A DNA stretch of 63,466 nt, counting the filler, from Chrysochromulina tobinii (Eukaryota): NCBI GenBank assembly GCA_001275005.1. It is 4 parts of 4 records of this genome, joined end to end, with 100 filler letters (N's around TTAATTAATTAA, not from the genome) between each part and the next. Parts side by side here need not be neighbours in the genome. Positions count along the whole stretch, not along the records: positions 47,094 to 63,466 come from JWZX01000319.1; 3 more parts are not named here. One strand, 5' to 3'. A program made the position numbers and the translations under genes. Of this stretch, positions 4,532 to 63,466 are shown one piece after another; position 1 is the first letter of the stretch, and each line of letters begins with the position of its first letter. Below the pieces are notes generated by a model. The model searched no databases, was not told the origin of the DNA, and saw only the letters and a program-made list of their open reading frames with translations.

Positions 4532-5251
4532 ATGGCTGCCTCGAGGCTCACGTCGACATCGTTCTTCACGCATCAGACAATCGCAGCACACCTTGCCGCA
4601 GGCCATCCAATGACCGTGCGGCGCGGCGAACACTGGTGTTGCCTCCTCTGCCAGCGACAGTTCAAGAGCGAGCGGTACCTCAGCCGCCACCTCGACTGCA
4701 GCACGATGCACTCTACTGCTCTCACCGCTGCCATCGCCTCTGGTCATTTGCCTCCATCCACCGTGGCCACGGCCACCGAAGCTCGAGCGGGCATGAAACG
4801 CGAGCGGACCGATGCAGAGGCCGACGGTGGCAGCAGCGGCGGTGGAGGCAGCAGCCTCTCTGCTCTGGAGCAGATGGAGCTCTTCGAGAAGCGACTCAAG
4901 TCGGTGACTCCGCGACCGAGCGCTTCGACGGGTGCACCACATGCCGAGATGGCGCAGGTCGACTCCAACCACGCGCGCTCCATGAATCGGCAGATGGACT
5001 GGTTGTGCTCAGGCTGTGGTAAGCTCAACTTCGCACGCGTCGTCGTCTGCATCGATTGCAAGAAGCATGTGGACTCGACCACGAAATACGTGACCAACCG
5101 CCTCAAGGAGATTAAACACCAGCGTTTCGCGACCGCCTTCCAGCATGACGAGACACTCAGCCGTTTCGCGCCGGCGCCGCCGCCGCATGAGGCACGTGCT
5201 GACGGATCGTTTGGCGACGGTCAGCAGCGTAGAGCCTCTTTCCACTCATGA
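4532..5251 (+). CDS. Zinc-finger protein: C2H2 finger (RBM5/10-like) plus RanBP2-type finger
   Basis: CLLCQRQFKSERYLSRHLDCSTMH and DWLCSGCGKLNFARVVVCIDC; ATG at 4532. Confidence 0.7.
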   Translation: MAASRLTSTSFFTHQTIAAHLAAGHPMTVRRGEHWCCLLCQRQFKSERYLSRHLDCSTMHSTALTAAIASGHLPPSTVATATEARAGMKRERTDAEADGGSSGGGGSSLSALEQMELFEKRLKSVTPRPSASTGAPHAEMAQVDSNHARSMNRQMDWLCSGCGKLNFARVVVCIDCKKHVDSTTKYVTNRLKEIKHQRFATAFQHDETLSRFAPAPPPHEARADGSFGDGQQRRASFHS

Positions 5252-53327: not shown

Positions 53328-56300
53328 ATGCCTCCGCGCGCTACCAGCGCCACCACGCCACGCCGCCGCCGCGGGCCCTCGCCACCCTCATCCGCACGCC
53401 GGCCGGCTGGCGGCGGTGGTCGTGGTGGCGCGGCAGGCCGAGGTGGAGCTGCAGGCCGCGGCAGCGGCTCCACCTCCGGTGCACGGACGGCTGCTGCCCC
53501 GGAACGCATGGAGGCACTGGTGCGCGAGTTCGTCGAGCTTTGCGACCGACCGGAGCCGCGTGCGGAGGTGGCGCGCCGTGTCCGTGAGGCGCCACGTGAG
53601 CGCAGGCTCGATCTGCTCGGGATGGCGCTCATGGGGCTGCCCGCAGGCCTGGGCAAGCAGCTGCCGATGCTCTCGGCGCTGCTTGTCAACACGAACTCGA
53701 TCAGGACGCTGCCCGACAGCGTGGGCGAGCTGCGCGCGCTCGAGAGGCTCAATGCTCGCTTCAACGTGCTCGGCGCGCTGCCGGCAACGATCGGGCTCCT
53801 CGGACAGCTTCTGAGCCTCGACGTGAGAAGACACGTCGAGCTGCCACTGACGGCTACTGATGGCCACTGATGGCCACTGATTGATCGCCACTGATCGCCA
53901 CTGACCGCCACTGATCGCCACTGATCGCCACCGACGTCCCTGATGGCCTTGCATGCAGGTGAGCAACAACGAGCTCGTCGAGCTGCCCGAGGCACTCGGC
54001 CAGCTGCCGCTGCTGCACACGCTGGACGTGCATGAGAATCAGTTGACGAGTCTGCCTGCGAGTCTGATCCAGCTGCGCAAGCTGAGTCTCCTGGACGCGC
54101 ACCGGAATCGACTTGGCGCGCTGCCGGAGCGGCTTGGCGAGCTTCCCGCGCTCACGTCGCTCGACATCTCGACCAATCTCCTTCGTGAGCTGCCTCTTGA
54201 TTGCCTCTTGATTGCCTCTTTGATTGCCTCTTGATCGCCTCTTGATCGCCTCTTGATCGCCTCTTGATGTATCTTGATTGTATCTTGGTTTATATATTGA
54301 TTGCCTCTTGATCGCCTCTTGATTATCTTGATTGCCATTGTCCCCCCACTAATGGCCGTATCGCTCCGTGACTTGACTTGACTTGACTTGACTTGAGTTG
54401 TTTTGACTTGACTTGACTTGACTTGACTTGACTTGAGTTGAGTTGAGTTGAGTTGTTTTGACTTGACTTGACTTGACGTGACGTGACTATGGATTCGCTC
54501 GATGAGGACGACTATGCACTGTTTGCGTTGCATGCAGGTGAGTTGCCCGACTCGATAGGCCACCTGAAGACGCTGATTACGTTCGACGTGCATGCCAACC
54601 AGCTGGTCGCACTCTGCGACTCGATTGGGCAGCTCGCATGCCTACAGAAGCTGCATGCGTCGGCGAATCGTCTGGTGAGCCTGCCCTCGATTGCGGGTAT
54701 GGTCTCCTTGCGCCATCTGGACATTTCCGAGAACGTTCTGGCGGAGCTGCCCACCGTGACGAACGAGACGGCGCTGTCGTTACGCGAGCTGCTGTGGAAG
54801 GGCAACCCGCTCCAGCGCCCGCCCGTCTCGGTTGCCAACCAGGTGAGCGACGAGCTCGAGGCCGCTTGATGGCCTCTGATTGCCTCCCTACTTAGATTGA
54901 TTGCCTCCCTCATCAGGGACTCGAGGCCGTGCGTCGCTACTTTGACGAACTCTTTGATTGCCTCCCTTCTTAGATTGATTGCCTCCCTCATCAGGGACTC
55001 GAGGCCGTGCGTCGCTACTTTGACGAACTTGAGCGCGCGGGAGCTACAATCTCGTGGTCCGCACGGCTTGTGCTGCTCGGCGACGGGATGGCGGGCAAGA
55101 CGAGCTTGCAGCGCGGCCTGTTCTATGGCACTCCGAAGCCCACGCACGTCGATGCGCGTACGATCCAGGTGCGATCTCCCTTGATTGCCTTTGATCGTAC
55201 TTGATTGCCAGCCCACTTGATCGTACTTGATTGCCAGCCCACGAATGAGCTTCGTCGCGTCGACTCGCGTGCGACCCAGCTCGACATCACGACGCTCACG
55301 CTGCGTGCTGCCTTTGGGGGCGCCCGACACGGCGTCGGTGGAGGAAAGGCGAGCGCGGAGGGCGCCCGACACGGCGCCTTCGGAGGGGCGAGCGTGGAAC
55401 GCGAGAAGGTCGGCGCCCAACTCGGCGCCAAGGGCGGGGGCGGGCGCAGCGGTGACGGCGTGGGCGGCGGCAGTAGTGCCAACAAAGGCGTCAGCAGCCA
55501 CGCAGTCGGCAGCAATGGCGCCAGCAATGGCGCCAGCCATGGCGGCAGCCATGGCGGTTACAATGGCACCGGCCACGGCGTTGGCACCAGCCACGGCGTC
55601 AGCGGCACCAGCGGGCAGGCCACTGACGACGCTCGCGACGTCACCATGTCAGTGTGGGATTTGGGAGGACAGATCGCCTATGCCGCCGCGCAGCAGCCTT
55701 ACATTGTGCCTGGGTCTCTGTACATCTTGGCGGTGGCGGCGCCGCGCGCCTCGGTGAGTTGTGATGGATGCTCGCTTCTGATGGCCCCTGATGGCCACTG
55801 ATGACCACTGAGTGCTTCTGAGCGCCTCGATGAGTTGTGATGGATGCTCGCGTTTGACTGTTGGTGGCCTTTGATGGCCACTGAGTGCTTCTGAGCGCCT
55901 CGATGAGTTGTGATGGATGCTCGCGTTTGACTGCTGTTGGTGGCCTTTGATGGCCACTGAGTGCCCCTGAGTGCTTCTGAGCGCCTGTGAGTGCCTCTGG
56001 TGGCAGGACGCTCACTACCCTGACGTCCTCGGCCGATGGCTCGACTACTTGCAAAGCAGCGCACCCGGTGCCGTCGTGCTCCCGGTGCTCACGCAGTGCG
56101 ATAAGCTCCTACCGAAGGCGGTCTCGCCACTGGAGGTGCACCATTTGGAGCGCGTGGTCGAGGAGCAGGCGTCGTGGGTGCGCCGTGCCATCTACTGGCA
56201 TCAGGTGTGCTGATTGCCTCCCTAATTGCATGCAGGCAGGGGTCGTGGGTGCGCCGTGCCATCTACTGGCATCAGGTGATTGCGGCTGATGGCGGCTGAT

Positions 56301-58351
56301 GGCGACTGATGGCTATGCGTGCAATTAGGGAGGCGGATTTGCATGCAGAATCATCAGGTGATGGCGGCTGATGTCGATGCGTGCCTATGATTGGCCTGGC
56401 GTCGCGGGTGCGGCATGCCACCGTACCCTGATCCCGATTGATTGCGTCGCATGCAGGTGCGCCAGCCAGCGGGCGCCGTGCGGCTGCGCATACGACCTCG
56501 CGTCGCGTGCGTCTCGTCAGTGGCGGGCGGTGAGAAGACCCTCGAAGCCCTCCGAGCTCAGCTCGAGGAGATTTGCTCGTCGTCGCCGCCGCTGCTGCTC
56601 TCCATCGGTCAGACTATCCCACGCAGCTGGTCCTATGCGGGCTCCATGCTCCGGGCGCTCCGTGATGGACGAGATCCGCTCGCGACGGCGCGCCACGTGG
56701 CCGAGCTCCTTGACGGCGCCCGGGACGGCGCGGTGGGTGGCACGAACGGTCGCCACCGGCCGCCGCCGGCTGTCTGCGAGGCACGCGCCCGGCCGTACAT
56801 GACGTGCGTGCTCCCTGATGGCCATGATTGCTCAATCTGGCTACACTGAGTGCCACTGTGAGCCACTGAGTGCCGCGGAGTGCCACTGATTGCTTTCAGG
56901 TACGCGGAGGCTCTCCAGTGCTGGCTCACCATGATTGCCACTGTTTGACATGATTGCCACTGATTGCTTTCAGGTACGCGGAGGCTCTCCAGTGCTGGCT
57001 CACGGCCGTGGCGCCGCCGCTGCGCGTCCCTCCAGACTCGCGTGTGCTCGCGGACGTGCTGCAGCTGCTGATTAATCAGGGTGAGTCTCTTCGTGAGCTA
57101 TGAACTCATCTTCTTGCACTGATGACCTGATTGCAATGATGGCTTCCTTAATCAGGGGAGCTCTTCGCGAGCTGCGGTCTCATCTTCTTGCATCCGGATT
57201 ACGTGACCCAGCTACTCAAGCCGCTCGTCGACCATCGGGTAAGCCATGACTGCTACTGATTACTGTTGATTGCGATGGATCGGCACTGATGAGTGCCACC
57301 ATTGCATGAATGCCAGCCGCGAGTGGGCGATCCCGCGCCTAATTGCATGCTGATTGCCTCCCTAATTGCATGCAGGTGAGCCGCGAGTGGGCGATCCCGC
57401 GCGCATACGAGCACACGGGCGAGCTGTTCGAGGAGTCACCGGGCGTTCGGCTGCTGCTGCACGCGACCGCGGTGCTCGTTGGCTCGGGGGAGTTACGGGA
57501 GGAGCTGCTGCCCATGCTGTGGGAAGATGTGGGGCTCCATGCGGACGACTACGGCGATGTGCGCTTGATTGAGTGTGAGTGTGAGTGTGAATGTGAATGT
57601 GAATGTGAATGCTTTGGGGCTCCGTGCGAACGACTTCGGCGATGTGCGCTTGAGAGTGATTGCGATTCATTGCAACTGATGGATGGCACTCATTACGTCC
57701 TAATGAGACCCCCAGGTGCTACTGATGTTGAGCGAGAGTGCATGCTGATTGCCTCCCTAATTGCATGCAGGTGCTCCTCATGTTGAGCGAGAGTGGCGTT
57801 CTCTTCCTCTCCGAGTTCACGCCGCTCGGCCGGCGCTGGGTGATGCCCCTGCGCTCGCCCGAACGTCGGCCTCTCGAGCTCCTCTTGAATGGCATGCTGA
57901 TTGCCCCCCTAATTGCATGCAGGTGATGCCCATGCGCTTGCCCGAACGTCGGCCGACCTCCGTAGACACTTCGTGGGCCGCCGCCCGACACGGCGCGCAG
58001 GTGAGCGTCTCAGCGGACGTGTGCTTGAATGCCACCGTTGGCGTTTCACAACTCTGGTTGCCACCCTGAGATTGGCTCCCTTGATTGGCACAGATTGCGC
58101 TGCGTGCGCCCTCCCTTGATTGGCACTGACGGCGCGTCCCGCCCGGCATGGCGCACGCAGGTGAGCCTCGTCTACGCGCTCGGCCGTATAGCACCGCCCG
58201 GTTTGACGGAACGCTTGATGGCGTCCTGCTTCGGGCTCGGCGTGTACCATCAATTCTGGCGCAAGGGGGCGTTGATCCAGGCGCGCGTGACGGATGTCGC
58301 CGAGCGTGAGCGCCATGCTGCTGCTGCTGCTGCCGACAACGACGCCGACGC

Positions 58352-58402
<51 letters not shown>

Positions 58403-60256
58403 CCTCGGGACGACTCAGCCCGGGACGACGCGTCTGCCCGGGACGACGCTTCTGCTGATTGAGCTTGAGAGCACTGAGGCCGTGGCCCACGCGTACAGCC
58501 ATACGGCGGGCGCTCCGGCGTGGACTTTGGGCTTGACGAACCCCGAGCCGCTTGGTGTGAACGAGGCCGACATGCACGGCGCGCCGCCGGCGCACGTGAC
58601 GGCGGCGCCCGAGCACACGCTTGCATGCACGCTGCGCGGGCCGGCGGAGGCCATCGAGGAGTTGTGTGAGCTGCTCGCGCAGGTGGCCTCGGAGCCGCTG
58701 ACGACACCCCGGAGTGCCTCTGACGTCACCTCGGAGTGCCTCTGACGAAACCTCGGAGTGCCTCTGACGACACCTCGGAGTGCCTCTGACGAAACCTCGG
58801 AGTGCCTCTGACGACACCTCGGAGTGCCTCCCTCATCAGGTGCGCGCCCGTGCCGACCAGCTGCTAAGCGACTTCCCCGGATTGCATGCGGAGGCGCGCG
58901 TGCTCGGCGTCGGTTATGACGGGCTTCGTCCCGCCGACGCTGTTTCGTCACGCCCGCGCCTGTCGCTCGCCTTGCCACGTACAGCGGCGGTGCGCCCGCC
59001 GGCTCACGACAGCGCTTCATGGACGAACCAAATTAGGCAGGCCGAGCGGTTCGTCGGCCAATTGCGCTTCGGCAAGCCCATCGAGGCTGCGCAGCGGGTG
59101 CACCGGCTGGTAGGACTGGAGGCGGAGGCGCTCGCAATGCATGCAGCGGCGGGTGAGAGAGCCATCGTTGCGGAATTTGCGGCATTTGCGGCCTGCGGCG
59201 CACCCAGCCGTGATGCGCTCGGGTGGACGGATCTCGATTGGCTCGAGTACGTGAGCCATCAGTCCGCGACGGAACGCCCTCTACCCCCCGGCATGCCCTG
59301 CGGCGTACTCGATCTGGGCCATCAAGGGCGAACCCTCGACGACTTCCACAGCGCACCGGCGGCGCAGGCGGCCAATCTGAGCCGGGCAGATGTGCTCGCG
59401 CTGCGCCTGTACTCGGGTGAGTCGTGCTGATGGCCTCTGATGAGCTCTGATTGCAATCTGAGTGCCCCGGAGGAGGGGCTCTAATGAATTTCGTGGCTCG
59501 GGCCCGTCCGCAGGCTCGACGCACCTGAACATCAACGGGCCATTACGCACCGGGTGCACACCGGAGGCTCCACATCCATACGCCTCTGACGAAACTGTTG
59601 AGTGCCTCTGACGACACCTCGAAGTGCCTCCCTCATGCAGGTGCACACCGGAGGCTCCTCATCCTTATGCCGCGACGGTCACTGTGCTCATCCAAGCGTG
59701 CAACAAGCTGCGCAAGGCCGCTGGCGCGGCGGCGGCCATCAGTAGTCCTTCGGCTGCCTCGGTGGCTGCCTCGGCGACTGATTCGGCGGCTGCAGTGCCG
59801 CTGCAGCCGCCGCAGCCACCGCCGCTGCGCACCCTGTGGCGAGGGGTACGGGACATGGCGCTCAGCACGGCGCTCACGGGCGAGTTCCTGCAGCGCGGGG
59901 GATGCGAGCTCGGATTCTTATCCGCTTCGACGGAGCGGGCGGTGGCCGAGCGCTATGCTGCGCGCAGCCATGCCGCGACGCCATGCGCGACGAGCCATGG
60001 TGCGCTGCTGCTGCTCAAGCTGAGCGCCCCCGACTTGCCACAGCACAGGGGCGCTGTCGTGGGCTTCCTAAGCGCCTTCCCGGGCGAGTCCGAGTGCCTC
60101 TTCCCCCCGGGCACGTACCTCCGGCCGGTGAGCCGAGAGCCGAGTTTAGTCGTCTCCGCGAGCGCCGTGCCGAGCGGTGGCGGCGGCGTGCGGTTGGTTC
60201 TGAGGCTGCTCAAGATTGTCGAGGTCCTCCCAATCGTCCAATGCACAGTTGTGTGA
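53328..60256 (+). CDS. ROCO protein: LRR-Roc-COR with C-terminal ADP-ribosyltransferase-like domain; about 15 introns
   Basis: LxxLxxxxNxLxxLP repeats; LLGDGMAGKTSL; VWDLGGQ; LTQCD; COR-like IFLHPDYVTQLLKPLVDH and PPGLTERLMASC; LWRG..FLSAST..FPGESECLFPPGTYL. Confidence 0.8.
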
Positions 60257-60956: not shown

Positions 60957-63466
60957 TCAGTCTGCTTCCAGCAGACGGATGGGAGACACTACACCCTGCT
61001 CTTGCTGCAGGTCAAGCCCACTGCTCTTCGGAGTTGCGTTCATTCGGCGCAGCTTCCACGCCAGCCCGCAGAGGCCGGCCAGGAGAAGGAGACCGCCGCC
61101 AACACCTCCTGCGATACGGCCAATGTCCATGGCCTTGTCGGGCGGCAGCGAGGGCGGCGAGGGCGGCGCCTGGCAAGTTGAGACTGTGCCAAGAACGCCG
61201 ATGAGGGTCGTTGCCCAAGAGCAGACTGTGGCTCCACAGCAGCCATCGACAAAGACGTTGGGCCCCTGCGCACGGAGCGCGAGGTCACAGTGGTCACTTC
61301 GGTGCTAGGTTGGCACGAGAATCTCTTCACCACACATGAGGGCATGAGATTATGAGCATGAGCACGCACGAACGTAGCTCGATTGGAATACACTTGGGAG
61401 TTCACGATAGAAACTGTGCCTTCTTCGACATAGACACCGCCTCCCTGCAAATAACGAGCAAAATGTGAGCTCCCATGAGGGCGGTGGGAACTTTGGAAGG
61501 TCTCTGCAGCACTCACCCACTGTAGTTGACCGAAGCGCTCGCAGTTGTGCAAGCGAGAATCAAAGCAAGCGCGTCAGCAATCTTCCCATCGGGCGATGGG
61601 AACTTTTGAGTCTCTGCGGCACGTACAGAAGCCTGTAGTTGACCGGAGCGTCGGCCGCAGTTGTTTGAGCGAGAGTCGAGGCAAGCACGTCAGCAACTTG
61701 CCCATCGAGGCGATGGGAAGTTTTCAAGTAGTTTTCAAGGTCTCTGTGGCACGTACTACATTATACTGTAGTTGACCGAAGTATTCGCAGTTTAGCAAGC
61801 GTGAGTCGGGGCAAGCACGTCAGCAACTTTCGCATCGGGGCGATGGGAAAATACAGGTCTCTGCGGCACATACATAAGACTATAGTTTATCAGAGTGTCG
61901 GCCGCAGTTGTGCGAGCGAGAGTCGAGGCAAGCACGTCAGTAATTTTCCCATCGGGGCGATGGGAACCTTTGAAGGTCACTGTGACACGCACGTTCTGTA
62001 GTTGACCAAAGCGTCGTTTGCAGAAAGAGTCGAGGCATAAGCACGTCAGCAATGTTACCATCGGGGCGATGGGAAAAGTTCAGGCCTCTGCGGCACGTAC
62101 ATACTGTAGTTGACCGGAGCGTCAGCCGCAGTTGTGCGAGCGAGAGTCGAGGCAAGCGCGTTAGCATTTTTCCCATCGGGGCAATGGGAACTGTTGAACA
62201 TGAGCGCGCACTTTGGCAGCTGTGTTCCCACTGATGGTGCACGATGAGATGGACACTGTGCCACCCACGACATGGACACCGCCGCCCTGCAAACAACGAG
62301 CCAAACGTGTCTCCCATAGGGCGATGGGAAACATTGAAGGTCTCTGCGGCACGTACAACCTGTAGTTGACCGGAGCGTCGGCCGCAGTTGTGTGCAAGCG
62401 TGAGTCGGGGCAAGCACGTCAGCAACTTTCCCATCGGGGCAATGGGAACTTTTGATCATGAGCATCACGCACATTGCTCGCTGGATTCCCGTAGATCGAG
62501 GAAGACGTTATCGTGACCGTGCCGGAAGAGACGTAGATACCGCCGCCCTGCAAACAACGAGCAAAACGTGAATCTCTTGGGGTGATGCGAATTTTTTTAG
62601 CGTTGGCACGCACATTGCCAGCTGTATTGCCAGTGATGGTGCATGATGACAAGGTCACTGTGCCATTGTTGATATAAACACCGCCGCCCTGAAAGCACAA
62701 TCGCAAAACATATCAAATCCCATCGGGGCTATGGGAACCTTGCAAGGTCTCTGCAGCACGCACCACCTGTAGTTACCGAAGCGTTCGCAGTTGTGCAAGC
62801 GTGAGTCGGGGCAAGCACGTCAGCAACTTTCCCATTGGGGCATTGGGCACTTTTGGGGATGAGCGCGCACAGCGCTAGCTGTGTTCCCACTGATGGTGCA
62901 CGATGAGATGGTCACTGTGCCTCCGAAGACTGCGACACCACCGCCCTGCAAACAACAAGCCAAACGTGAGTCTCACATAAGGGAGATGGGAAACATTGAA
63001 GGTCTCTGCGGCACCTACATTCTGTAGTTGACCGAGCGTCAGTCGTAGTTGTGCAAGTGTGAGTTGAGGCAAGCATGTCAGCAATTTCCCCACCGGGGCG
63101 ATGGGAAACATTGAAGGTCTCTGCAGAACATACTTGCTGAAGTTGACCAAAGCGCCGGCCGCAGTTGTGCAAGCGAGAGTCGAGGTAAGCACGTCAGCAA
63201 GGTTCCCATCGGGGCGATGGGATAGTTGCAGGTCTCTGCGGCACGTACCCCCTGTAGTTGACCGAAGCGTTCGCAGTTGTGCAAGCAAGAGTCAAGGCAA
63301 GCACGTTAGTCATTTTCCCATTGGGGCAATGGGAACTTTTGAAGTTTCAGGCGCAGATGGCACGTACTGAATACTGTAGTTCGAGGCAGCACCCATCATA
63401 AAAGATGAGAATCGAAATGCACATGTCAACAAGGCATTTCCCCATCGGGGCGATGGGAAGTTTGCA
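60957..63466 (-). CDS. Type-I membrane beta-helix (PMP/pectin-lyase-like repeat) protein encoded by 75-nt repeat exons plus microexons; 5' part lies outside the window
   Basis: 75-nt phase-0 exons at 62871-62945, 62614-62688, 62473-62547, 62212-62286 and 61370-61444 (GGG(V/I)xVxxGTVxIxxxxIxGNxAxx). Terminal exon 61265-60957 encodes a Cys-rich cap, Pro stalk, TM helix IAGGVGGGLLLLAGLCGLAW, KLRR and a short tail. Confidence 0.8.
61445..63466 (-). repeat. Array of about 105-125-nt conserved intron modules with a cccatcg-ccc-cgatggg hairpin, flanking 12 microexons
   Basis: Repeated GTacgtgccgcagagac...ttcccatcgccccgatggg...gctgacgtgcttgcc...ggtcaactacAG on the minus strand. Confidence 0.9.

What the first reader, a model, noticed from the sequence alone, without database searches (positions are those of the whole stretch)
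61445..63466. Introns built from two interchangeable halves joined at a conserved hairpin (possible shuffling hub)
Seen in sequence: there are two donor-side halves (GTgcg(c/t)gctcat after 75-nt exons; GTacgtgccgcagagac after microexons). There are also two acceptor-side halves (gctgacgtgcttgcc...caactacAG before microexons; cgtttggctcgttgtttgcAG before 75-nt exons). All four combinations occur, and the switch lies at the palindrome ttcccatcg-ccc-cgatgggaa, which is degenerate in the large-to-large intron 62548-62613. Microexon number per loop varies (at least 4, then 1, 0, 1, 6). Inference: recombination at the hairpin adds, deletes or swaps exon cassettes, or the RNA hairpin assists microexon splicing.
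Basis: partly seen in the sequence, partly recalled or inferred. Interest (0 to 1): 0.75.

Follow-up and report, generated by a model that had tools for sequence, protein, structure and literature searches.

The report
Palindrome-bounded single-codon exon cassettes
A predicted surface-protein gene of an alga spells its variable loops with exons only one to three codons long, which RNA shows are spliced in, and these exons are likely copied between related genes at a short palindrome sitting in almost every intron, a likely way to vary what the cell surface binds.

Summary
The window ends in a minus-strand gene of a Chrysochromulina-type haptophyte. It encodes a predicted membrane-anchored Pmp-like beta-helix: 75-nt exons give one coil each, and 3-9-nt exons fill the loops. 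RNA contigs from two runs join all four, and all six, microexons of two loops in genomic order; no skipped form was listed. The family is large: 388 cassettes parsed, 197 of 218 type-B microexons are one codon. There are at least four kinds of half-intron, not two. The unit that moves is the exon with its two half-introns, palindrome to palindrome. Types assort freely across the palindrome (V=0.07) but not across the exon (V=0.94). In 47 recent sharing events, breakpoints fit palindrome-focused exchange and reject my simulation of uniform homologous exchange. The stem shows no covariation or G-U bias, so an RNA splicing role is unsupported. The locus is identical in four other assemblies and keeps its last loop in two 94% alleles, so change is evolutionary, not seen within the culture. 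Codon-sized exon arrays (truffle) and repeat-exon shuffling (brown algae) are known; my searches found no palindromic intron hub. No recombinase could be sought.

The parts
63368..63373 (-). microexon, 6 nt (YS), loop 1; flanking halves unlike the common B type
   Evidence: spliced in, X11 and X15
63249..63251 (-). microexon, 3 nt (G), loop 1
63134..63136 (-). microexon, 3 nt (Q), loop 1
63019..63021 (-). microexon, 3 nt (N), loop 1
62871..62945 (-). 75-nt exon, one predicted beta-helix coil (GGGV..N motif); a copy 1.6% different lies in L136 with another downstream neighbour
62764..62766 (-). predicted microexon, 3 nt (V)
   Evidence: no RNA joint seen
62614..62688 (-). 75-nt exon with a variant acceptor half
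   Evidence: joined to next exon in X13
62548..62613 (-). 66-nt large-to-large intron with decayed palindrome (62572-62591)
   Evidence: spliced in X13
62473..62547 (-). 75-nt exon
62357..62359 (-). predicted microexon, 3 nt (V)
   Evidence: no RNA joint seen
62212..62286 (-). 75-nt exon
62101..62103 (-). microexon, 3 nt (Y), last loop
61993..61995 (-). microexon, 3 nt (N), last loop
   Evidence: joined to next microexon in L125
61874..61879 (-). microexon, 6 nt (SY; PY in allele L057)
61757..61765 (-). microexon, 9 nt (YNV; NHV in allele L057)
61627..61632 (-). microexon, 6 nt (AS)
61517..61519 (-). microexon, 3 nt (W)
   Evidence: included in X11, X14, X15, X16 and L125
61370..61444 (-). last 75-nt exon
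61266..61369 (-). 104-nt final intron: A-type donor half, decayed palindrome, its own acceptor half
   Evidence: spliced in all 4 runs
60957..61265 (-). last exon: Cys-containing cap, Pro linker, predicted single transmembrane stretch, short tail, stop
   Evidence: hydrophobic stretch read by eye; nearest named clusters are single-pass membrane proteins, scores under 0.9, a lead only
63439..63459 (-). palindrome copy (9-bp arms, CCC loop on the sense strand)
63315..63335 (-). palindrome copy (both CpG positions changed)
63203..63223 (-). palindrome copy
63087..63107 (-). palindrome copy
62972..62992 (-). palindrome copy, decayed, before a large exon
62829..62849 (-). palindrome copy
62717..62737 (-). 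palindrome copy
62428..62448 (-). palindrome copy
62311..62330 (-). palindrome copy before a large exon
62170..62190 (-). palindrome copy
62055..62075 (-). palindrome copy
61946..61966 (-). palindrome copy, perfect consensus
61829..61849 (-). palindrome copy
61699..61719 (-). palindrome copy
61583..61602 (-). palindrome copy, one base short
61470..61490 (-). palindrome copy before the last large exon
60957..63466 (-). 3-prime part of the whole gene (28 predicted exons in L031, frame open to the final stop)

Best explanation
This is one gene of a haptophyte family of predicted surface beta-helix proteins whose loops are built from spliced-in one-to-three-codon exons, and whose exon cassettes are likely copied between and within family genes by DNA recombination that starts or ends at the intronic palindrome. 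Shown: the microexons are joined in genomic order in RNA; near-identical cassettes sit in different arrays with different neighbours; types assort freely across the palindrome; the codon changes far faster than its flanks. Inferred: the palindrome acts in DNA. As a stem-loop it would stall or break the DNA, and repair by template switching or short-tract gene conversion would use the roughly 10-25 bp that every junction shares, inserting, deleting or replacing whole cassettes of 90-125 bp. All exons are phase 0 and multiples of three, so any product stays in frame. Frequent exchange would itself keep the palindrome uniform. Inferred function: a diversifying repertoire of cell-surface binding proteins (viruses, bacteria or prey), varied over generations and not, as far as seen, by alternative splicing.
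For: Splicing: in X11 and X15 the letters between large exons are exactly the four microexons of loop 1 (15 nt) and the six of the last loop (29 letters listed, the 30th taken as the first base of the next piece). Partly spliced forms occur in X14, X16, X11 and contigs L125, L044. Frame: 217 of 218 B, 24 of 24 C and 131 of 136 A exons are multiples of 3, while half-intron lengths are not so confined. Hub: donor type versus next acceptor type V=0.07, p=0.57 (282 of 293 junctions, types A-C); across the exon V=0.94. Distance-matched linkage at 22-70 nt is -0.005 to 0.022 across the palindrome, mostly under 0.008, and 0.009-0.047 within cassettes. Of 101 near-identical anchor pairs, 71 have a different neighbour. 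In 47 spanning-tree events the neighbour is of another type in 26, and identity runs 30 nt or more into a same-type neighbour in 3 of 21. Palindrome-only exchange with 8-12 nt homology predicts 0.45-0.57 and 0-0.01; uniform exchange predicts 0.13-0.28 (P at most 6e-5) and 0.34-0.57 (P 0.0001-0.04). Shared blocks in L043/L034, L073/L008 and the L034 internal duplicate begin at a palindrome. Diversification: in 20 cassette pairs whose introns differ 1.7% per base, the codon differs 23% per base, 8 of 9 changes altering the residue; large-exon positions 5, 7, 22, 24, 25 show 97 amino-acid-changing against 2 silent codon differences. Family and fold: nearest named relatives are Chrysochromulina tobinii and Chrysochromulina gene models; relatives hit PF13229 and PF02415; stand-in P0112 folds at pLDDT 87.5 with repeating strands, and its best PDB matches are beta-helix proteins, weakly.
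Against: The register scan (15-17 events palindrome-to-palindrome against 1 straddling) does not by itself show a hotspot: passive short-homology exchange gave the same bias in simulation. The discriminating test rests on 47 events and my own simple model, which has no repeated events or selection. About 1 in 7 same-type events end inside a cassette, linkage also decays inside exons, and codons are swapped without their flanks, so exchange is not confined to the palindrome. Deletion ends at the loop are only weakly enriched (6 of 32 against 2.7, p=0.052). No change was seen between assemblies of this locus or in two 94% alleles of the last loop. The protein of this gene was not folded, and its 25-aa exons give no Pfam hit alone. 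Ligand and function are untested. All DNA is short-read assembly.
Confidence: 0.62

Rival explanations
1. A dedicated site-specific system, integron-like: an enzyme recognises the palindrome (inverted arms, asymmetric CCC core, all copies in one direction) and excises and inserts cassettes, possibly as circles and possibly on induction.
For: Site anatomy: arms better kept than the centre. Loop always read one way; 0 antisense against 1699 sense motif hits. Single cassettes turn up in distant arrays, and adjacent near-identical duplicates are 1 of 202 neighbour pairs. The data fit palindrome-only exchange.
Against: No recombinase was seen in the 12 window ORFs scanned, of 80 listed for 44-60 kb, and no genome was available. 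Junctions are often imprecise or decayed. The variable central positions are a CpG, which mutates fast anyway. No within-culture variation was seen. The motif is absent from viral contigs.
Confidence: 0.13
2. Passive hub: the palindrome does nothing mechanistically. It is simply the only sequence shared by all cassette types, so ordinary unequal crossing-over and gene conversion pile up there.
For: Simulation puts 40-58% of tract ends in the palindrome with no hotspot and reproduces the register bias. Tandem and internal duplications exist (L008, L019, L034).
Against: The uniform model predicts far fewer type switches and longer identity runs than observed. It does not explain why the shared sequence is a palindrome or why it is better conserved (0.93) than the rest of the intron (0.81-0.87).
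Confidence: 0.13
3. The hairpin works in RNA, spacing or presenting splice sites so that 3-nt exons are included; recombination at it is a side effect.
For: The stem is predicted in most microexon-flanking introns and lost in the introns between or before large exons that were folded. Pair 8-14 is intact in 74% of junctions before microexons but 26% before large exons.
Against: No compensatory change above chance: pair 8-14 reads CG 95, TG 18, CA 16, TA 2 of 156. G-U-tolerated and G-U-breaking single changes are about equal at inner pairs (38 versus 32, my sum). The arms are unlinked. Whole-intron folding z-scores run from -2.9 to +0.9. Free exchange at the loop would also erase covariation, so this test is weakened.
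Confidence: 0.08
4. The introns are Introner-type transposons that inserted repeatedly between codons and so created the microexons.
For: Introners are reported from a Chrysochromulina MAG (10.1101/2022.06.06.494994, passages). Intron-free repeats exist in the family (L042; P0001, P0032).
Against: Whole introns are not the shared unit; their halves are unlinked. All 249 palindromes in loci of 3 kb or more lie in arrays, none isolated. All insertions are phase 0 and in one orientation. An ancient single insertion as the seed is not excluded.
Confidence: 0.04

Closest known systems
Codon-sized mini-exon arrays of Tuber melanosporum nank (NACHT-ankyrin) genes (Iotti et al. 2012, not read; cited in PMC4986451, PMC10197012, PMC13449251, passages read)
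   Same: Runs of 3-bp exons inside an expanded family of candidate non-self receptors.
   Different: There the reported mechanism is alternative splicing in an intracellular NLR of a fungus. Here all microexons were included in the complete RNA contigs seen, the variation lies in the DNA, the host is a predicted surface beta-helix, and a palindrome marks the exchange point; none is mentioned in the passages read.
[quoted passage not shown]
   Same: One solenoid repeat per symmetric exon (72 nt there, 75 nt here), reshuffled between paralogues, with diversifying selection on exposed residues.
   Different: There, inverted and dead exons lie in introns, no microexons are described in the parts read, and no site or mechanism was identified ('palindrom', 'hairpin', 'inverted repeat' do not occur in PMC3341825). 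Here there are no inverted cassettes and a defined junction sequence.
Schistosoma micro-exon genes, MEGs (10.1101/2023.06.21.545858 abstract; PMC4350168 passages)
   Same: Symmetric exons down to 3 bp in fast-evolving interface proteins.
   Different: MEG introns are 0.2-5 kb, most of the coding region is microexons, and variation is by alternative splicing. Here introns are 66-124 nt paralogous modules and microexons fill only the loops.
Concerted evolution of highly conserved WD/ANK/TPR repeats in fungal NLRs (PMC4986451, passages)
   Same: Constant exchange of repeats within and between family genes, with positive selection at binding positions.
   Different: There the homology is in the coding repeats. 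Here intronic modules carry it and allow single codons to be added or removed.
Bacterial integron cassettes and tyrosine-recombinase sites (recalled, no call)
   Same: Cassettes in one orientation, each bounded by a palindromic site, moving as single units.
   Different: No integrase, no circle and no precise crossover point is shown here; the cargo is an exon; the site is 21 bp.

Membership tests
Codon-sized microexon arrays (Tuber nank type) | Consecutive 3-nt exons that are spliced into mRNA | tested here: met
Codon-sized microexon arrays (Tuber nank type) | Diversification by alternative splicing | tested here: inconclusive
   No skipped form among the 8 joints listed; contigs drop rare forms and depth is 2-10
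Codon-sized microexon arrays (Tuber nank type) | NACHT-ankyrin host gene | tested here: not met
   Relatives are PF13229/PF02415 beta-helix proteins
Brown algal ROCO/NB-ARC exon shuffling | One repeat per symmetric exon, reshuffled, with diversifying selection | tested here: met
Brown algal ROCO/NB-ARC exon shuffling | Inverted exons stored on the non-coding strand | tested here: not met
   0 antisense against 1699 sense motif hits
Brown algal ROCO/NB-ARC exon shuffling | LRR or TPR repeats with ROC-COR or NB-ARC | tested here: not met
Schistosome MEG | Most of the coding region in microexons separated by long introns | tested here: not met
   18 of 28 exons but only about 75 coding bases; introns 66-124 nt
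Introner elements | The whole intron is the copied unit | tested here: not met
Introner elements | Copies dispersed in unrelated genes | tested here: not met
   0 of 249 isolated in loci of 3 kb or more; 11 of 11 window matches in the array; loci were fetched by an array motif and no genome was held
Integron-like site-specific cassette system | Directly repeated palindromic sites bounding single-cargo cassettes | tested here: met
Integron-like site-specific cassette system | Breakpoints concentrated at the site | tested here: met
   about 1 in 7 same-type events fall elsewhere
Integron-like site-specific cassette system | A dedicated recombinase and excised circles | not testable with these tools
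   No genome held; only contigs, no raw or long reads
Pmp-like right-handed beta-helix (PF13229, PF02415) | GG-x-x-V...N coil repeats forming a parallel beta-helix | tested here: met
   Tested on relatives P0032, P0001 and P0112; the spliced protein of this gene was not submitted

The most novel reading that the evidence does not exclude
A unicellular alga runs an integron-like, enzyme-driven cassette system in its nuclear genes: a recombinase recognises the intronic palindrome and rewrites receptor loops one codon at a time, possibly within a clonal population under viral attack.
Probability: 0.13. Interest if true: 0.95.

Novelty: new variant of a known kind. Interest (0 to 1): 0.76.

Why it matters
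It shows directly, with RNA, that runs of up to six consecutive 3-9-nt exons are spliced faithfully through introns of about 110 nt, a hard case for exon-definition models, and the partly spliced forms give a handle on the order of splicing. It gives repeat-exon shuffling in algal receptor candidates a defined 21-bp junction, which the brown-algal work lacked, so the question of targeted versus passive shuffling becomes testable. The cassettes let a gene add, remove or swap single residues in a binding loop without breaking frame; the commonest residues are G, Y, N, S, W, D, a mix I recall as typical of antibody binding loops. A public gene model reads through these introns (P0104), so such arrays are probably being missed.

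Tried and rejected
No whole genome was held, so no recombinase search and no family census. Pfam on single exons gave nothing; Rfam gave nothing; the palindrome has no exact match in viral contigs. A Mantel test on 77 B-B units was weak: r 0.11-0.19 across the exon, -0.04 to -0.10 across the palindrome, and only 0.08 within one half, so I moved to site-wise linkage. The register scan looked decisive but failed its null and is not used as hotspot evidence. Deletion-end enrichment was not significant. Of 12 short junction motifs from paralogue RNA contigs, 6 had no match in the fetched loci and most matches were chance or uninformative. Intron-to-intron RNA joints (for example 62448/62743, 4035/6059) and 'goes back' joints were treated as paralogue pre-mRNA and not as rearrangement; no DNA run was laid. 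Parts of the gene without RNA cover, including both single-V loops and the five-microexon loop upstream of the window, are not evidence either way. The atlas search gave only leads under 0.9. Earlier-finding look-ups by sequence, place and a long word list were empty. Literature searches with no relevant hit: microexon + haptophyte, 0 papers. No supplements were read, and subscription papers such as Iotti 2012 and the Chrysochromulina genome papers' supplements could bear on novelty.

Full report
What is there. The last 2.5 kb of the window is the 3-prime part of a minus-strand gene. Parsing by splice motifs alone gives five 75-nt exons, twelve exons of 3-9 nt, introns of 66-124 nt, all GT-AG and phase 0, and a last exon of 102 codons with a cysteine cap, a proline linker, a hydrophobic stretch and a short tail. 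A 21-bp palindrome with 9-bp arms and a CCC loop lies in every intron but the last, where it has decayed: 17 copies allowing decay, 11 at up to 3 mismatches against 0.02 expected, none elsewhere in the window. Four other assemblies are 100% identical over the parts they cover, and three extend upstream. The whole gene has 28 predicted exons, 18 of them microexons, with the frame open to the final stop (one of my coordinates there is off by one base). The first exon's best named relatives are Chrysochromulina tobinii proteins and Chrysochromulina gene models, among 239 hits. Relatives carry the right-handed beta-helix and Chlamydia PMP repeat families. A stand-in, P0112, folds confidently with the loop position as a turn between strands, and its best PDB matches are beta-helix proteins at weak E-values.

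Are the microexons real? Six metatranscriptome runs hold the stretch; four were laid on the window end and four on the whole array at 97% likeness. In X11 and X15 a contig joins large exon to large exon across loop 1, and the 15 letters between are the four microexons in order. In the same two runs the last loop is joined and the letters between are the six microexons in order. X14 and X16 show the last two microexons joined to the next exon with the upstream intron kept. Contig L125 matches a predicted partly spliced form over 442 nt. No skipped form is among the 8 joints listed, but contigs drop rare variants. The two single-V loops have no joint.

The family. These hold 462 unique stretches between palindromes; 388 were parsed and 74 left out as too short, too long or below the motif thresholds. 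Four cassette types emerge: A (72-78 nt mostly), B (197 of 218 are 3 nt; 217 are multiples of 3), C (24 of 24 are 6 nt) and D (8 of 10 are 15 nt). No 3-nt exon is a stop; TAG cannot be seen by construction, and about 3.5 TAA or TGA would be expected (my sum). Culture-type contigs fall in 28 groups, some surely fragments of one gene. The codon is hypervariable: 23% per base against 1.7% in the flanking halves of 20 pairs that were chosen for similar flanks, which biases the flank figure down. Five positions of the large exon carry 97 amino-acid-changing and 2 silent differences.

Is the palindrome the hub? Across the exon, acceptor and donor types are locked (V=0.94); across the palindrome they are independent (V=0.07, p=0.57). 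At matched distances of 22-70 nt, linkage is lower across the palindrome than within cassettes in all four junction classes; at 71-100 nt the B-to-A class reverses. Near-identical cassettes usually have different neighbours (71 of 101 anchor pairs). Named cases: L021 shares one large exon and a 6-nt cassette with this gene amid other neighbours, and RNA supports that arrangement too. L043 lacks two cassettes present in L034, identity resuming at the loop. L073 and L008 become identical from a palindrome onward. Isolated identical windows peak in the palindrome-to-palindrome register, but passive exchange needing 10-24 nt of homology gave the same peak in simulation, so that result only shows that the cassette, not the intron, is the unit. 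The sharper test asks what follows a shared cassette. In 47 spanning-tree events the neighbour is of another type in 26, and identity runs 30 nt or more into a same-type neighbour in 3 of 21 (median 10). Palindrome-only exchange with 8-12 nt homology reproduces the type fraction and median run; uniform exchange does not (P at most 6e-5 on type, 0.0001-0.04 on run length). The model is simple, and some events clearly end elsewhere.

DNA or RNA? The stem is more conserved than the rest of the intron (0.93 against 0.81-0.87) but shows no covariation and no sense-strand G-U bias; its variable positions are a CpG. The two arms are unlinked, and the 3-prime arm travels with the next acceptor half. 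Introns with a decayed stem are spliced, though these lead to large exons. Deletion ends lean towards the loop without reaching significance. This favours action in DNA, with an RNA role not excluded.

Time scale. The locus is the same in every culture-type assembly. Two alleles at 94% keep the order and number of the last loop over the parts they cover (six and three microexons), with three amino-acid changes in L057's microexons. Other members differ between samples in cassette content. Exchange is thus frequent in evolution but not seen within the culture at consensus level.

Comparison. Codon-sized exon arrays are reported for truffle nank genes, with alternative splicing as the mechanism (passages in PMC4986451, PMC10197012, PMC13449251; the original paper was not read). 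Two earlier scan notes led me to that case, and others describe similar arrays in other protists without RNA proof (unchecked). One-exon-per-repeat shuffling is reported for brown algal ROCO and NB-ARC genes with no site identified (PMC3341825, PMC11378527). Schistosome MEGs have symmetric microexons and long introns. Introners are reported in a Chrysochromulina MAG, but the unit here is not the intron. My ten searches found no report of this family's structure or of an intronic palindrome as an exon-cassette junction; the library lacks most subscription papers.

Verdict. Real, RNA-verified, and a new variant of a known kind: it works like brown-algal repeat shuffling combined with truffle-type codon exons, with a defined palindromic junction that neither description has. 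Most likely mechanism: palindrome-stimulated, short-homology copying of whole exon cassettes in DNA (0.62). An enzyme-driven integron-like system is not excluded (0.13). Interest 0.76.

Noticed in passing
window about 55200-60256, + strand: The gene facing the array tail to tail has a weak Roc hit (E 9e-4, below the Pfam cut-off) and a last exon that by eye resembles an ADP-ribosyltransferase fold (recalled; not detected by Pfam). It could be a ROCO-like defence gene next to the receptor-like gene.
   Followed up: partly
protein P0104: A Chrysochromulina gene model joins the beta-helix cap, translated intron text and a kinase domain: the microexons were missed, and some family members may be receptor kinases.
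   Followed up: partly
L042:1-460 (minus strand); P0001, P0032: Intron-free repeats with long variable loops occur in the family; L042 has a cassette-built domain followed by an intron-free one. This suggests intron loss through cDNA, or an ancestral state.
   Followed up: no
L125, L044; joints 5022/5370, 5488/5562, 6880/7062: Partly spliced forms show two microexons joined to each other while both outer introns remain, and progress from either end of a loop.
   Followed up: partly
L031:4386-4388 and 4723-4728: One upstream microexon has a GC donor; another has two possible acceptors, only one of which avoids a stop.
   Followed up: no
L008 and L073; L015 and L019; L034 and L106: Whole codons differ between cassettes whose introns differ at only 1-2 positions, suggesting very short conversion tracts across the microexon itself.
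   Followed up: partly
L023, L029, L034, L043, L069, L071, L082: 15-nt CxxC cassettes and longer Cys-rich exons drop disulfide knuckles into the loops.
   Followed up: no
proteins P0011, P0016, P0018, P0030, P0054, P0096: The beta-helix cap appears fused to acetyl-CoA carboxylase or insulinase domains in several predicted proteins; real fusion or gene-model merger was not checked.
   Followed up: no
window 6645-59630: Many introns of other genes carry 10-11-bp tandem repeats, a different intron style from the array.
   Followed up: no
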